The translations under genes were made by a program, and so were the position numbers. A stretch of 64,000 nt of DNA, taken from the NCBI GenBank assembly GCA_009914755.4, contig CP086569.2, forward strand, positions 50,848,001-50,912,000, given 5' to 3'. Shown here in pieces: positions 9,577 to 21,378 of the stretch (position 1 is its first letter; every line of letters begins with the position of its first letter). Source of the stretch: the human T2T-CHM13v2.0 reference genome, Homo sapiens. The notes beneath the pieces were generated by a model. It was not told the DNA's origin, ran no database searches, and was given only the letters and a program-made list of their open reading frames with translations.

Positions 9577-11698
9577 ATATTTTTTAAAAGAAAAAAAATT
9601 TCAAAGGTACTCTGCTTGGTACAATAATCAAATGTATAAACTGAGGAATAAAACATAACCATGAAACCTACTTATAACTGTATACGGAAAATACAGAGGA
9701 TAATTTTTTAAATAACATATTTTGAAAGCCTTAACTAGTAATTTGAAGAGTTGGCATTTGAAAGGCCAGTATGAATATACCTTCAAAGCAGCAACACAGG
9801 TTCCCCATGAGAAAAAGCAAACTCAGGGAAAATAAAACCACAAAGGTTCAATCTCTTCTGACCTTTGAAAGACACAGCACAGACAGTGGTCCTTAGGACG
9901 AAGAGCAGGAGACCCCTAATTCCGTCACCATGGCGATAGGGCATAAACATTGCTGGGTGAGGGCACAATCCACATTGTGAGGTCCAACTGCTGCCAGGAA
10001 GACAGGAGTGCTTTTACATAGACCGAAAGGTCATTGAAGGCTCAGAGTTTTGTTTCAAGAACTGAATCCCAAGCCCACACGTTATTAGGCTGCGCTTCTT
10101 AAAACAAGTTATGAGATGGGAAAAAGGGCACCCACAAACATACGTATACATTATGTATATAATAATATACAGTATCATATATATAATATATATAACCTAT
10201 GTATAATATTGTTTTACATCCTGCATCTTATAATATATATATTGTATAAAATATAATAATTGATAATATATAAGTTTTATATTTATACAATATGACATAT
10301 AGTATATATTATAATTTATGACATATATAATATATGTTATATATCATATATAGAATATATTATACGGTTAATATACGTATTAAATATAAATTATACTTTA
10401 TATATATTATATATAATATATCTGTTATATAAAATACCCATTATGCATAATATATATGTTATGTCTATGTTATATATAGTATAAAACAACATATAATAAT
10501 ATATAATTGTATATATAAAATGCGACATATAATATATATTATATTTTGTGACATATGTAATATATATTATATATTATATATAATACGTTGTATGTATAAT
10601 ACCTATATTAAATATATATTATATGACTATGTTATTAATTACATGTCACATATGTTATATATTATATATTTTACATAGAATATACCGGTTACATACAATA
10701 TATACTATGTTACCTATAATGTATAATTGATTACATGTAAAATAAAGAATGCAATATATTATGTATAATTTATAATATACAATATGTGGAATGTGATATA
10801 TATAACATATAATGTATGATATAAGATATACAGTATATGATATATAATATACAATATATGATACCTAATATATATGGTATACAATTTATATTTTATGATA
10901 TGTATTCTATATGTTTTATATTCTGTTATATATAACTATTTGAAATTATATATAACTGTATAATATTTTATGTAAATATGTAATATAATATTTATAACCA
11001 TATAATATATTATATATAACTATATATTATGTTATATATACTTTTATAACATAATTTACATAAAATATCATAATATAATATATATTATATTATTTCATAT
11101 TACATAATATATATTACATATCACCCAATATAATTAACATACATAATATTATAATATAGATTATATTATGTTATATTAAATATCATATATATCATGTATC
11201 ATATATTCTATAATATATATTATACATTATATAATATGTATGTTGTCTATTATGTGATTTATATAACTATATATATAATTATATTATTATACATATAACT
11301 AGATAAACATGTAATTCGACATATTTTCATTTATAATATATAGAATTATATAATCATATATAATTATTTATATTCTATAAAAAATTATATCATTATAAAA
11401 ATTATAATATATAAAAATTATAACATGTACTACAAATATATATATTATATATCATATATGATATAGCACCTTTGTTATATATCATAATACATACAAATGT
11501 GTATTATGTTATCTATAATTGTAAAATTTCATATATAAGATGTATAATGTGTATTATATATTATATATGTTATGTAATATATGTAGTATATATAAGATGA
11601 CACAGGATAAATATTATATACTATGACATATAAAATATATGAGGTTATATGTTACGTATAAGGCATAGCACATAACACGTAATATATATCATATATAA

Positions 11699-11996
11699 TT
11701 TTTTTTTAGACAGAGTCTTGTCCTGTTGCACAGGGTGGAGTACAATGACGCCATCTTTGCTCACTGCAACATCTGCCTCACGGGTCCAAGCGATTGTCCT
11801 CCCTCAGCCTCCCAGGTAGCTGGGACTACACCACACTGGGACTACACCAGCTGCCACCATACCTAGCTAATTTTTTGGGATTTTATTAGTGACAGCGTTT
11901 CACTGTATTGGCCAGGATGGTCTTGATCTCTTCACCTTGTGATCCCCTTGCCTTGGCCTCCAAATTTGCTGGGATTACAGGCCTGAGCCAAGATCC
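11699..11996 (-). mobile_element. Alu, unit 5 copy
   Basis: Same Alu at +2,420 bp. Confidence 0.9.
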
Positions 11997-14118
11997 ATAT
12001 TTTTTAAAAGAAAAAAAATTTCAAAGGTACTCTGCTTGGTACAATAATCAAATGTATAAACTGAGGAATAAAACATAACCATGAAACCTACTTATAACTG
12101 TATACGGAAAATACAGAGGATAATTTTTTAAATAACATATTTTGAAAGCCTTAACTAGTAATTTGAAGAGTTGGCATTTGAAAGGCCAGTATGAATATAC
12201 CTTCAAAGCAGCAACACAGGTTCCCCATGAGAAAAAGCAAACTCAGGGAAAATAAAACCACAAAGGTTCAATCTCTTCTGACCTTTGAAAGACACAGCAC
12301 AGACAGTGGTCCTTAGGACGAAGAGCAGGAGACCCCTAATTCCGTCACCATGGCGATAGGGCATAAACATTGCTGGGTGAGGGCACAATCCACATTGTGA
12401 GGTCCAACTGCTGCCAGGAAGACAGGAGTGCTTTTACATAGACCGAAAGGTCATTGAAGGCTCAGAGTTTTGTTTCAAGAACTGAATCCCAAGCCCACAC
12501 GTTATTAGGCTGCGCTTCTTAAAACAAGTTATGAGATGGGAAAAAGGGCACCCACAAACATACGTATACATTATGTATATAATAATATACAGTATCATAT
12601 ATATAATATATATAACCTATGTATAATATTGTTTTACATCCTGCATCTTATAATATATATATTGTATAAAATATAATAATTGATAATATATAAGTTTTAT
12701 ATTTATACAATATGACATATAGTATATATTATAATTTATGACATATATAATATATGTTATATATCATATATAGAATATATTATACGGTTAATATACGTAT
12801 TAAATATAAATTATACTTTATATATATTATATATAATATATCTGTTATATAAAATACCCATTATGCATAATATATATGTTATGTCTATGTTATATATAGT
12901 ATAAAACAACATATAATAATATATAATTGTATATATAAAATGCGACATATAATATATATTATATTTTGTGACATATGTAATATATATTATATATTATATA
13001 TAATACGTTGTATGTATAATACCTATATTAAATATATATTATATGACTATGTTATTAATTACATGTCACATATGTTATATATTATATATTTTACATAGAA
13101 TATACCGGTTACATACAATATATACTATGTTACCTATAATGTATAATTGATTACATGTAAAATAAAGAATGCAATATATTATGTATAATTTATAATATAC
13201 AATATGTGGAATGTGATATATATAACATATAATGTATGATATAAGATATACAGTATATGATATATAATATACAATATATGATACCTAATATATATGGTAT
13301 ACAATTTATATTTTATGATATGTATTCTATATGTTTTATATTCTGTTATATATAACTATTTGAAATTATATATAACTGTATAATATTTTATGTAAATATG
13401 TAATATAATATTTATAACCATATAATATATTATATATAACTATATATTATGTTATATATACTTTTATAACATAATTTACATAAAATATCATAATATAATA
13501 TATATTATATTATTTCATATTACATAATATATATTACATATCACCCAATATAATTAACATACATAATATTATAATATAGATTATATTATGTTATATTAAA
13601 TATCATATATATCATGTATCATATATTCTATAATATATATTATACATTATATAATATGTATGTTGTCTATTATGTGATTTATATAACTATATATATAATT
13701 ATATTATTATACATATAACTAGATAAACATGTAATTCGACATATTTTCATTTATAATATATAGAATTATATAATCATATATAATTATTTATATTCTATAA
13801 AAAATTATATCATTATAAAAATTATAATATATAAAAATTATAACATGTACTACAAATATATATATTATATATCATATATGATATAGCACCTTTGTTATAT
13901 ATCATAATACATACAAATGTGTATTATGTTATCTATAATTGTAAAATTTCATATATAAGATGTATAATGTGTATTATATATTATATATGTTATGTAATAT
14001 ATGTAGTATATATAAGATGACACAGGATAAATATTATATACTATGACATATAAAATATATGAGGTTATATGTTACGTATAAGGCATAGCACATAACACGT
14101 AATATATATCATATATAA

Positions 14119-18958: not shown

Positions 18959-19256
18959 TTTTTTTTTAGACAGAGTCTTGTCCTGTTGCACAGGGTGGAG
19001 TACAATGACGCCATCTTTGCTCACTGCAACATCTGCCTCACGGGTCCAAGCGATTGTCCTCCCTCAGCCTCCCAGGTAGCTGGGACTACACCACACTGGG
19101 ACTACACCAGCTGCCACCATACCTAGCTAATTTTTTGGGATTTTATTAGTGACAGCGTTTCACTGTATTGGCCAGGATGGTCTTGATCTCTTCACCTTGT
19201 GATCCCCTTGCCTTGGCCTCCAAATTTGCTGGGATTACAGGCCTGAGCCAAGATCC
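18959..19256 (-). mobile_element. Alu, unit 8 copy
   Basis: Same Alu at +2,420 bp. Confidence 0.9.
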
Positions 19257-21378
19257 ATATTTTTTAAAAGAAAAAAAATTTCAAAGGTACTCTGCTTGGC
19301 ACAATAATCAAATGTATAAACTGAGGAATAAAACATAACCATGAAACCTACTTATAACTGTATACGGAAAATACAGAGGATAATTTTTTAAATAACATAT
19401 TTTGAAAGCCTTAACTAGTAATTTGAAGAGTTGGCATTTGAAAGGCCAGTATGAATATACCTTCAAAGCAGCAACACAGGTTCCCCATGAGAAAAAGCAA
19501 ACTCAGGGAAAATAAAACCACAAAGGTTCAATCTCTTCTGACCTTTGAAAGACACAGCACAGACAGTGGTCCTTAGGACGAAGAGCAGGAGACCCCTAAT
19601 TCCGTCACCATGGCGATAGGGCATAAACATTGCTGGGTGAGGGCACAATCCACATTGTGAGGTCCAACTGCTGCCAGGAAGACAGGAGTGCTTTTACATA
19701 GACCGAAAGGTCATTGAAGGCTCAGAGTTTTGTTTCAAGAACTGAATCCCAAGCCCACACGTTATTAGGCTGCGCTTCTTAAAACAAGTTATGAGATGGG
19801 AAAAAGGGCACCCACAAACATACGTATACATTATGTATATAATAATATACAGTATCATATATGTAATATATATAACCTATGTATAATATTGTTTTACATC
19901 CTGCATCTTATAATATATATATTGTATAAAATATAATAATTGATAATATATAAGTTTTATATTTATACAATATGACATATAGTATATATTATAATTTATG
20001 ACATATATAATATATGTTATATATCATATATAGAATATATTATACGGTTAATATACGTATTAAATATAAATTATACTTTATGTATATTATATATAATATA
20101 TCTGTTATATAAAATACCCATTATGCATAATATATATGTTATGTCTATGTTATATATAGTATAAAACAACATATAATAATATATAATTGTATATATAAAA
20201 TGCGACATATAATATATATTATATTTTGTGACATATGTAAAATATATTATATATTATATATAATACGTTGTATGTATAATACCTATATTAAATATATATT
20301 ATATGACTATGTTATTAATTACATGTCACATATGTTATATATTATATATTTTACACAGAATATACCGGTTACATACAATATATACTATGTTACCTATAAT
20401 GTATAATTTATTACATGTAAAATAAAGAATGCAATATATTATGTATAATTTATAATATACAATATGTGGAATGTGATATATATAACATATAATGTATGAT
20501 ATAAGATATACAGTATATGATATATAACATACAATATATGATACCTAATATATATGGTATACAATTTATATTTTATGATATGTATTCTATATGTTTTATA
20601 TTCTGTTATATATAACTATTTGAAATTATATATAACTGTATAATATTTTATGTAAATATGTAATATAATATTTATAACCATATAATATATTATATATAAC
20701 TATATATTATGTTATATATACTTTTATAACATAATTTACATAAAATATCATAATATAATATATATTATATTATTTCATATTACATAATATATATTACATA
20801 TCACCCAATATAATTAACATACATAATATTATAATATAGATTATATTATGTTACATTAAATATCATATATATCATGTATCATATATTCTATGATATATAT
20901 TATACATTATATAATATGTATGTTGTCTATTATGTGATATATATAACTATATATATAATTATATTATTATACATATAACTAGATAAACATGTAATTCGAC
21001 ATATTTTCATTTATAATATATAGAATTATATAATCATATATAATTATTTATATTCTATAAAAAATTATATCATTATATAAATTATAATATATAAAAATTA
21101 TAACATGTACTACAAATATATATATTATATATCATATATGATATAGCACCTTTGTTATATATCATAATACATACAAATGTGTATTATGTTATCTATAATT
21201 GTAAAATTTCATATATAAGATGTATAATGTGTATTATATATTATATATGTTATGTAATATATGTAGTATATATAAGATGACACAGGATAAATATTATATA
21301 CTATGACATATAAAATATATGAGGTTATATGTTACGTATAAGGCATAGCACATAACACGTAATATATATCATATATAA

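What the first reader, a model, noticed from the sequence alone, without database searches (positions are those of the whole stretch)
9674..19353. A run of 3–4 apparently base-identical 2,420-bp units
Units 5, 6 and 7 show no difference that I can detect by eye. Unit 8 differs at about two sites. Sequence identity of this degree over about 7–10 kb of tandem copies implies either very recent amplification or conversion, or an assembly expansion or collapse artefact. Either way this is the youngest part of the array.
Basis: seen in the sequence. Interest (0 to 1): 0.55.

Follow-up and report, generated by a model that had tools for sequence, protein, structure and literature searches.

The report
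Identical neighbouring units in DYZ2 satellite
The three base-identical 2,420-bp copies are real, but they are an ordinary recent local expansion inside the well-known human Y-chromosome satellite DYZ2 (HSat1B), where whole units are known to be gained or lost about once per generation.

Summary
Units 5, 6 and 7 (9674-16933) are identical at every base. Unit 8 differs at two sites (17110, 19300). The perfectly periodic tract is 7814-17109, which is 9,296 bp or 3.84 units.

The array is human satellite DYZ2/HSat1B:
- The unit is 2,420 bp with three parts: a GC-richer part, a 1.55-kb part that is 86% AT, and a 5'-truncated, diverged antisense Alu.
- The 'ACATACG' junction motif is present.
- GC is 24%.
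- The array abuts a (GGAAT)n HSat3 array with a 3.54-3.6 kb period (DYZ1). This is the Yq12 architecture.

Independent copies, found as human contamination in 17 bacterial assemblies, are about 98% identical to unit 5. They lack the 12 derived alleles carried by the identical units. The identity therefore reflects local amplification of a derived haplotype, not units that simply match the consensus.

The identical units sit inside a homogenised block of about 11 units. That block is flanked by units 2-4% diverged, and by a unit 12% diverged at the array edge. This is the published pattern.

Pedigree data show de novo gains or losses of one or two whole DYZ2 units about once per Y transmission. 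Identical neighbours are therefore expected. An assembly artefact cannot be excluded without reads. The finding is already known and of low interest.

The parts
1..49654 (.). DYZ2 / HSat1B satellite array: 20 complete units plus a truncated 21st. The array continues beyond the left end of the window.
   Evidence: Unit starts are and the lag-2420 periodicity. GC is 24.3% with 1 CpG per 129 bp, against the published 24% and 1 per 150 bp.
7814..17109 (.). Perfectly periodic tract of 9,296 bp (3.84 unit lengths). This is the true extent of the identical copies.
   Evidence: It is the longest perfect self-match at lag 2420. It is bounded by site 7813 (unit offset 560, T vs A) and site 17110 (offset 177, A vs C).
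9674..12093 (.). Unit 5, identical to units 6 and 7.
   Evidence: 0 differences in the all-against-all alignment.
12094..14513 (.). Unit 6, identical to units 5 and 7.
14514..16933 (.). Unit 7, identical to units 5 and 6.
16934..19353 (.). Unit 8. It has two differences from units 5-7 (17110 A>C, 19300 T>C). Both alleles recur in non-adjacent units: 177C in u13, u15 and u16, and 2367C in u10.
7254..9673 (.). Unit 4. It has six differences from unit 5, all in 7402-7813. From 7814 onward it is identical to units 5-7. The left edge of the homogenised block lies inside this unit.
7814..35456 (.). Homogenised block of about 11.4 units (3' part of u4 to 5' part of u15). Pairwise differences are at most 16 within u4-u14. 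The right edge lies between about 35014 and 35456 inside u15.
   Evidence: Distance matrix and variable-site table.
9674..10150 (+). GC-richer part of the unit ('HSATI' part, 42% GC). It ends in the ACATACG motif at unit offset 465-471.
   Evidence: The motif and its position are as described.
10151..11698 (.). AT-rich low-complexity part of the unit (1,548 bp, 85.9% AT), dense in imperfect inverted repeats.
11699..11990 (-). 5'-truncated, diverged Alu on the minus strand. It aligns to positions 13-289 of an AluY consensus at 77% identity including gap columns.
   Evidence: There is a weak Rfam hit to mir-1268, which I recall to be Alu-derived, at 11803-11869 on the minus strand, E=0.007.
24194..33873 (.). 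Two-unit (4,840-bp) duplication. The pair u11-u12 resembles the pair u13-u14: u12 vs u14 has 1 difference and u11 vs u13 has 6, while adjacent units differ by 12-13.
41127..49654 (.). Degenerate array edge. Units u18-u20 are shortened (2,390, 2,386 and 2,387 bp). u20 is about 12% diverged. u21 (48290-49654) is truncated in its AT-rich part.
49655..64000 (+). HSat3 (GGAAT)n array with a higher-order period of 3.54-3.6 kb, consistent with DYZ1. GC is 38.5% with 1 CpG per 36 bp. Successive units are about 92.6% identical.

Best explanation
The window shows the end of a DYZ2 (HSat1B) satellite array and the start of the neighbouring DYZ1 (HSat3) array, almost certainly from the human Y-chromosome long-arm heterochromatin (Yq12). 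Units 5-7 are true recent copies of one another. One unit carrying a locally derived haplotype was duplicated at least twice, by out-of-register exchange between sister chromatids or an equivalent replication-linked misalignment within the array. No point mutation has since occurred in the 9.3-kb tract.

Shown:
- The identity of the units.
- The family membership.
- The derived haplotype.
- The divergence gradient away from the identical units.

Inferred:
- The exchange mechanism.
- The age: at most about 800 generations at the published Yq12 rate of 3.86e-7 per bp per generation.
- That the copy number in the assembly is correct.
For: **Family**
- The unit is 2,420 bp, equal to the published final DYZ2 consensus length. 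ACATACG lies at the junction of the GC-rich and AT-rich parts.
- The unit has three parts: an 86% AT part, a 5'-truncated Alu about 20% diverged, and a GC-richer part. This matches Rhie et al..
- GC and CpG density match the published values for both satellites.
- The neighbouring array is GGAAT-based with a 3.54-3.6 kb period.
- Seventeen unrelated bacterial assemblies hold small contigs about 98% identical to the unit. This is the contamination that Rhie et al. reported for HSat1B.

**Recent local amplification**
- u5, u6 and u7 have 0 differences.
- They carry 12 alleles absent from the external full-length copies L001 and L005.
- A 42-mer with two of those alleles has 0 hits in metagenome contigs. 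The ancestral 42-mer has 23 stretches there, and is present in 8 of the 17 bacterial contaminant contigs, none of which carries the derived version.
- Derived alleles are nested around the identical units. 1175T and 1586T occur among u4-u19 only in u4-u8 (1175T recurs in the diverged edge unit u20), 1213T in u4-u10, and 1821C, 1848G and 1983G in u4-u14.

**Process**
- A pedigree study found five de novo structural variants of 2,416-4,839 bp, each a whole DYZ2 unit or units, about one per Y transmission. The window also holds a two-unit duplication of the same size class.
- Published arrays show homogenised centres and diverged edges. The window shows the same pattern.
- A rough steady-state estimate from the published rates predicts that about 4-9% of neighbouring DYZ2 units are identical. 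The window has 2 of 19.
Against: No read data were available, so the copy number and the absence of polishing-induced homogenisation are unverified. No copy of the human genome was available to the tools. Family membership therefore rests on published descriptions and on contaminant contigs, not on direct alignment to T2T-Y. HSat1B also lies next to HSat3 on chromosome 15p, so the Y assignment rests on the 3.5-3.6 kb HSat3 period, the 2,420-bp unit and the high homogeneity. Duplication and long-tract conversion cannot be formally separated from a single haplotype.
Confidence: 0.8

Rival explanations
1. Assembly or polishing artefact. The assembler expanded or collapsed the number of near-identical units, or consensus polishing with mis-mapped reads erased true differences between them.
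For: Perfect identity over several tandem copies is what such artefacts produce. Satellite arrays are the hardest regions to assemble. Nothing in the sequence alone can exclude this.
Against: The perfect tract is only 9.3 kb. From general knowledge rather than a tool result, that is shorter than typical HiFi reads and far shorter than ultra-long nanopore reads. The assembly resolves single-base differences in the units immediately on either side (u4 with 6 sites, u8 with 2 sites). Identical neighbours are expected at a rate of several per cent from published mutation and unit gain/loss rates.
Confidence: 0.1
2. Homogenisation by gene conversion without any change in copy number. Pre-existing diverged units were overwritten by a neighbour's sequence.
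For: About 29% of de novo Yq12 single-base changes look like interlocus conversion. Unit 8's two differences from units 5-7 are alleles shared with non-adjacent units, which is a conversion-like signature. Units u12 and u14 are mosaic for derived and ancestral alleles.
Against: The conversion-like changes reported were single-base, whereas the tract here is 9.3 kb and perfectly periodic across 3.84 units. Whole-unit gains and losses are directly observed at about one per transmission and explain the tract with two events.
Confidence: 0.07
3. No recent event. The units are identical because all three still equal the common DYZ2 master sequence and mutation is slow.
For: At a euchromatic mutation rate, 9.3 kb could stay unchanged for tens of thousands of generations.
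Against: Units 5-7 differ from the external full-length copies at 12 sites where those copies, and the outer units of the window, share the other allele. All external copies are about 2% different from u5. The derived 42-mer is absent from metagenome contigs, while the ancestral one is present 23 times.
Confidence: 0.02
4. The mechanism is the same, but the array is an HSat1B array on an acrocentric short arm (for example chromosome 15p) rather than Yq12.
For: HSat1B occurs on acrocentric short arms. On chromosome 15 it lies next to HSat3, with a block of diverged HSat3 repeats between the two arrays.
Against: The adjoining HSat3 has the 3.54-3.6 kb period described for the Y-specific DYZ1. 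The unit length equals the Y-derived 2,420-bp consensus. Low-identity (<95%) allelic alignments are reported for acrocentric HSat1B. This is only indirect contrast, because that figure is between-haplotype identity, whereas here within-array unit identity is 96-100%.
Confidence: 0.08

Closest known systems
DYZ2 / HSat1B satellite of human Yq12 (Rhie et al. 2023, 10.1101/2022.12.01.518724; Hallast et al. 2023, 10.1101/2022.12.01.518658)
   Same: The unit is 2,420 bp. It has an AT-rich part, a 5'-truncated diverged AluY and a GC-richer HSATI part. ACATACG lies at the HSATI/AT-rich junction. GC is 24%. The array alternates with DYZ1. Unit-to-unit identity exceeds 98%, the interior is homogenised and the edges are diverged.
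   Different: Nothing of substance differs. The particular derived haplotype of units 4-14 was not seen in the external copies sampled here, as expected for a local low-copy variant.
De novo whole-unit DYZ2 gains and losses in a four-generation pedigree (Porubsky et al. 2025, PMC12240836)
   Same: The event sizes of 2,416-4,839 bp correspond to one or two units. These are the same size classes as the one-unit triplication (u5-u7) and the two-unit duplication (u11-12 and u13-14) seen here. The conversion-like sharing of alleles between non-adjacent units also matches.
   Different: Those events were observed directly between father and son. Here the events are inferred from a single haplotype, and their age is only bounded.
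Homogenisation of tandem arrays by unequal crossing-over, as in centromeric alpha-satellite higher-order repeats and rDNA (Smith's 1976 model; named from general knowledge)
   Same: The youngest, most similar copies lie inside the array and older, diverged copies lie at the periphery. The array changes by gain or loss of whole units.
   Different: The unit is a 2.4-kb composite that includes a retroelement fragment, not a 171-bp monomer repeat or a gene. On the male-specific Y, exchange must be between sister chromatids or within a chromatid.

Membership tests
DYZ2 / HSat1B | Tandem unit of about 2.4 kb (published final consensus 2,420 bp; many units counted as 2,413 bp) | tested here: met
   Twelve successive units are exactly 2,420 bp and unit 2 is 2,413 bp.
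DYZ2 / HSat1B | Composite unit: an extremely AT-rich part (>85% AT), an ancient 5'-truncated AluY fragment (about 20% diverged), and a more GC-rich (HSATI) part | tested here: met
   The AT-rich part is 1,548 bp at 85.9% AT and the GC-richer part is 477 bp at 42% GC. The Alu lies at 11699-11990 on the minus strand. There is also a weak mir-1268 hit.
DYZ2 / HSat1B | Seven-base segment ACATACG at the junction of the HSATI part and the AT-rich part | tested here: met
   There is a single occurrence in unit 5, at offset 465-471, exactly at that junction. It is described.
DYZ2 / HSat1B | Base composition of about 24% GC and about 1 CpG per 150 bp | tested here: met
   24.3% GC and 1 CpG per 129 bp over 1-49654.
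DYZ2 / HSat1B | Direct sequence match to the published DYZ2 consensus or to T2T-Y HSat1B annotation | not testable with these tools
   No human genome or Dfam library is available. As an indirect test, 17 contaminant contigs in unrelated bacterial assemblies are about 98% identical to the unit. Rhie et al. reported this class of contamination as HSat1B.
Yq12 location (DYZ1/DYZ2 alternating blocks) | The DYZ2 array abuts a DYZ1 array: HSat3 pentamer repeats organised in units of about 3.5-3.6 kb, at 38% GC and about 1 CpG per 35 bp | tested here: met
   There are 58-74 GGAAT per kb and no ATTCC from 50 kb onward. The best long period is 3,544 bp without gaps, and 3,599 bp by gapped alignment at 92.6% identity. 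GC is 38.5% with 1 CpG per 36 bp.
Yq12 location (DYZ1/DYZ2 alternating blocks) | Exclusion of acrocentric HSat1B arrays, which can also lie near HSat3 (chromosome 15p) | tested here: inconclusive
   The 3.5-3.6 kb HSat3 period, the 2,420-bp unit and the high homogeneity favour the Y chromosome. No chromosome-specific reference was available for comparison.
Array evolving by unequal exchange | Interior units more alike than peripheral units, with whole-unit copy changes | tested here: met
   Adjacent-unit differences run 56, 69, 65, 6, 0, 0, 2, 12, 5, 8, 12, 12, 13, 22, 53, 77, 97, 47, 309 towards the array edge. There are one-unit and two-unit identical or near-identical repeats.

The most novel reading that the evidence does not exclude
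The 3.84-unit perfect tract could be an extremely recent expansion that is private to this individual's Y lineage. It could even have arisen de novo or in the cell line that was sequenced. It would then mark a currently active site of unit gain within this DYZ2 array. The dense imperfect inverted repeats of the AT-rich part might promote the breaks that start out-of-register repair.
Probability: 0.12. Interest if true: 0.25.

Novelty: already known. Interest (0 to 1): 0.1.

Why it matters
It matters little beyond bookkeeping. The finding is a clean small-scale example of how the Yq12 satellites turn over. A locally derived unit was copied two or more times, it sits in a homogenised core, and older units are pushed to the array edge. 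Both the family and the process have been described from complete Y assemblies and from father-son transmissions. Two practical points follow. Identical neighbouring units in DYZ2 should not by themselves be read as misassembly. DYZ2 sequence is also a common contaminant of microbial assemblies.

Tried and rejected
- **Rfam at gathering thresholds.** The whole window gave no match. A permissive scan of one unit gave only a weak mir-1268 hit and a chance-level DLEU2_6 hit.
- **tRNA scan.** Nothing was found.
- **ORFs in a unit.** The only ORFs are six of 52-61 codons, which gives no reason to think the unit is coding.
- **Viral contigs.** There was no copy of the conserved 32-mer.
- **Literature search for DYZ2 PCR primers.** I wanted a direct sequence test, but the search returned mostly irrelevant papers and no usable primer sequences.
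- **Long metagenome contigs as a baseline.** I hoped to use BNJT01002008.1 and BNJU01004413.1, both about 54 kb of tandem DYZ2, to measure how often neighbouring units are identical. They have irregular periods and 84-97% identity with many gaps, and look like uncorrected long-read sequence. They were not usable.
- **Short-read contigs slightly longer than one unit (L001, L034).** These have identical ends at lag 2,420. They are probably collapsed repeats and say nothing about neighbours.
- **'Identical because all equal the consensus'.** This idea was tested and rejected.
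Full report
**Observation**

Comparing the window with itself at a shift of 2,420 bp gives about 100% identity from roughly 7 kb to 33.4 kb. The longest uninterrupted match makes the sequence perfectly periodic over 7814-17109, which is 9,296 bp or 3.84 units.

Anchoring on the first 40 bases of a unit places unit starts at 1, 2421, 4834, 7254, then every 2,420 bp up to 33874, then 36293, 38711, 41127, 43517, 45903 and 48290.

An all-against-all alignment of the 20 complete units gave these results:
- Units 5, 6 and 7 have no differences.
- Unit 8 differs from them at two sites (17110 and 19300).
- Unit 4 differs from unit 5 at six sites, all in its first 560 bp.

It is not a chance fluctuation. 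The other members of the same young cluster differ pairwise by about 11 sites, which gives a Poisson probability of zero of about 2e-5.

**What the array is**

One unit has four parts:
- a 477-bp part of 42% GC;
- a 1,548-bp low-complexity part of 85.9% AT;
- a 292-bp Alu on the minus strand (11699-11990 in unit 5);
- a 103-bp tail.

Rfam gives only a weak hit there to mir-1268, which I recall to be an Alu-derived microRNA family. The window has no tRNA, no Rfam family at gathering score, and only 52-61-codon ORFs in a unit.

From 49655 to the end, the + strand is (GGAAT)n-rich, with 58-74 copies per kb and none of the complement. GC is 38.5%, and there is a long period of 3,544-3,599 bp.

The published descriptions fit point by point:
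- DYZ2 (HSat1B) is a unit of about 2.4 kb made of an AT-rich simple repeat, a 5'-truncated Alu and an HSATI part.
- Its final consensus is 2,420 bp after adding 'ACATACG' at the HSATI/AT-rich junction.
- It has 24% GC and 1 CpG per 150 bp.
- It alternates with DYZ1 (HSat3), which has units of about 3.5-3.6 kb, 38% GC and 1 CpG per 35 bp.

In unit 5, ACATACG occurs once, exactly at that junction. The DYZ2-like part has 24.3% GC and 1 CpG per 129 bp. The HSat3 part has 1 CpG per 36 bp.

**Copies from elsewhere**

No human genome is available to the tools. Rhie et al. reported that HSat1B is a common contaminant of bacterial assemblies, so I searched for it there.

A 32-mer that is invariant in all 21 units of the window occurs in 17 taxonomically unrelated bacterial assemblies. 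Sixteen of the matches are in contigs of 0.6-2.5 kb, and one is in a 5.16-Mb scaffold. These copies are about 98% identical to unit 5 over their whole length. That matches the divergence of the outer units of the window from the inner ones and the published '>98% identical'.

Chromosome assignment is slightly less certain. HSat1B also occurs on acrocentric short arms and lies next to HSat3 on 15p. The 3.5-3.6 kb HSat3 period, the 2,420-bp unit and the high homogeneity favour Yq12.

**Why the units are identical**

The external full-length copies L001 and L005 carry a different allele from unit 5 at 12 sites: unit offsets 560, 1056, 1141, 1175, 1213, 1319, 1586, 1645, 1725, 1821, 1848 and 1983. 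At nearly all of these sites the outer units of the window agree with the external copies. Units 5-7 are therefore not unchanged copies of the common sequence. They carry a locally derived haplotype.

A 42-mer containing two of the derived alleles occurs 11 times in the window. It does not occur in the metagenome collection or in any of the 17 bacterial contaminant contigs. The ancestral version occurs in 23 metagenome stretches and in 8 of those 17 contigs.

The derived alleles are nested around the identical units:
- 1175T and 1586T occur among u4-u19 only in u4-u8 (1175T recurs in the diverged edge unit u20).
- 1213T occurs in u4-u10.
- 1319T occurs in u4-u11 and u13.
- 1821C, 1848G and 1983G occur in u4-u14.

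Adjacent-unit differences along the array run 56, 69, 65, 6, 0, 0, 2, 12, 5, 8, 12, 12, 13, 22, 53, 77, 97, 47, 309. The array thus has a homogenised core of about 11 units (about 7814 to about 35.0-35.5 kb), older units on both sides, and a degenerate, shortened and truncated edge at the junction with HSat3 (49654/49655). This is the pattern Hallast et al. describe for DYZ2 arrays. They attribute it to expansion and contraction in the array interior.

**Mechanism**

The simplest history is at least two gains of one unit each, by out-of-register exchange between sister chromatids or an equivalent replication-linked misalignment. No point mutation has followed in the 9.3-kb tract. This is an inference from one haplotype, but the process itself has been seen directly.

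In a four-generation pedigree, five de novo Y structural variants of 2,416-4,839 bp each affected whole DYZ2 unit(s), about one per transmission. The Yq12 single-base rate was 3.86e-7 per bp per generation, and 29% of the changes looked like interlocus conversion.

The window also contains a two-unit event. u12 and u14 differ at 1 site and u11 and u13 at 6, while neighbouring units there differ by 12-13.

Both of unit 8's differences from units 5-7 are alleles that recur in non-adjacent units: 177C in u13, u15 and u16, and 2367C in u10. This fits conversion or an exchange junction rather than new mutation.

**Age and how ordinary this is**

With the published Yq12 rate, zero changes over 9,296 bp puts the 95% upper bound on the age at about 835 generations. 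With a euchromatic rate the bound would be about 27,500 generations.

I made a rough steady-state estimate, assuming about 5,800 units on a Y (14 Mb of DYZ2) and one unit-level event per transmission. It predicts that about 4-9% of neighbouring units are identical. The window shows 2 of 19. Identical neighbours should therefore be common across Yq12.

**Rivals**

- **Assembly or polishing artefact.** This cannot be excluded without reads. However, the tract is short compared with modern read lengths, and the flanking units retain single-base differences.
- **Conversion without copy-number change.** This is less economical for a 9.3-kb perfectly periodic tract.
- **'No event, just slow mutation'.** The derived haplotype contradicts this.

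**Verdict**

The structure is a textbook stretch of a known human satellite evolving by a known process. It is already known and of low interest.

Noticed in passing
L006 5897-6920 (NZ_HF570958.1, Nostocoides japonicum T1-X7, 5.16-Mb RefSeq scaffold): A 1,024-bp HSat1B fragment sits between two runs of N inside a high-GC actinobacterial scaffold. Human satellite contamination has been scaffolded into a bacterial reference genome. Its GC-rich part is 99.4% identical to unit 5 but its Alu-containing part only 94.5%. It may come from a different HSat1B subfamily.
   Followed up: partly
L001-L017 (genome-contig hits): Seventeen unrelated bacterial or MAG assemblies (Mycobacterium, Bifidobacterium, Streptomyces, Alcanivorax and others) contain contigs that are about 98% identical to the DYZ2 unit. 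All but one of these are 0.6-2.5 kb contigs. This agrees with the contamination reported by Rhie et al.
   Followed up: partly
window 24194-33873: Units alternate between two types (u11/u13 and u12/u14). u12 and u14 differ at 1 site while neighbouring units differ by 12-13. This is a two-unit (4,840-bp) duplication, the same size class as the largest de novo DYZ2 variants in the pedigree study.
   Followed up: yes
window 17110 and 19300: The two sites that distinguish unit 8 from units 5-7 are not private. 177C recurs in u13, u15 and u16, and 2367C recurs in u10. External copies carry A and T at these sites. This looks like interlocus conversion or an exchange junction rather than new mutation.
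   Followed up: partly
window 7402-7813 and about 35456-36292: The two edges of the homogenised block are marked by clusters of private substitutions. Five lie within 392 bp in the 5' part of u4. About eleven lie in the 3' part of u15. This suggests exchange junctions with lineages not otherwise present in the window.
   Followed up: partly
window 41127-49654: The last units before the HSat3 junction are shortened (2,390, 2,386 and 2,387 bp). u20 is about 12% diverged. The final unit is truncated within its AT-rich part at 49654.
   Followed up: yes
window 49655-64000: At this array edge, successive HSat3 (DYZ1-like) units are only about 92.6% identical with many small indels. The interior DYZ2 units are far more homogeneous.
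   Followed up: partly
window 10151-11698 (and the same part of every unit): The AT-rich part is packed with imperfect inverted repeats. One unit has 89 pairs of at least 16 nt within 200 nt, with arms up to 65 nt at 71-88% complementarity. This agrees with the reported enrichment of inverted repeats in HSat1B. A role in breakage is speculation.
   Followed up: no
L018, L019, L023, L025, L029, L037, L038, L040 (BNJT01002008.1 and BNJU01004413.1, about 54 kb each): Two long metagenome contigs contain multiple tandem DYZ2 units across the stretches sampled, with irregular periods and many indels. They look like uncorrected long-read human Y DNA deposited as metagenome assembly.
   Followed up: partly
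window 2421-4833: Unit 2 is 2,413 bp long. This is the length that Hallast et al. report as the commonest when units are delimited by their first method.
   Followed up: no
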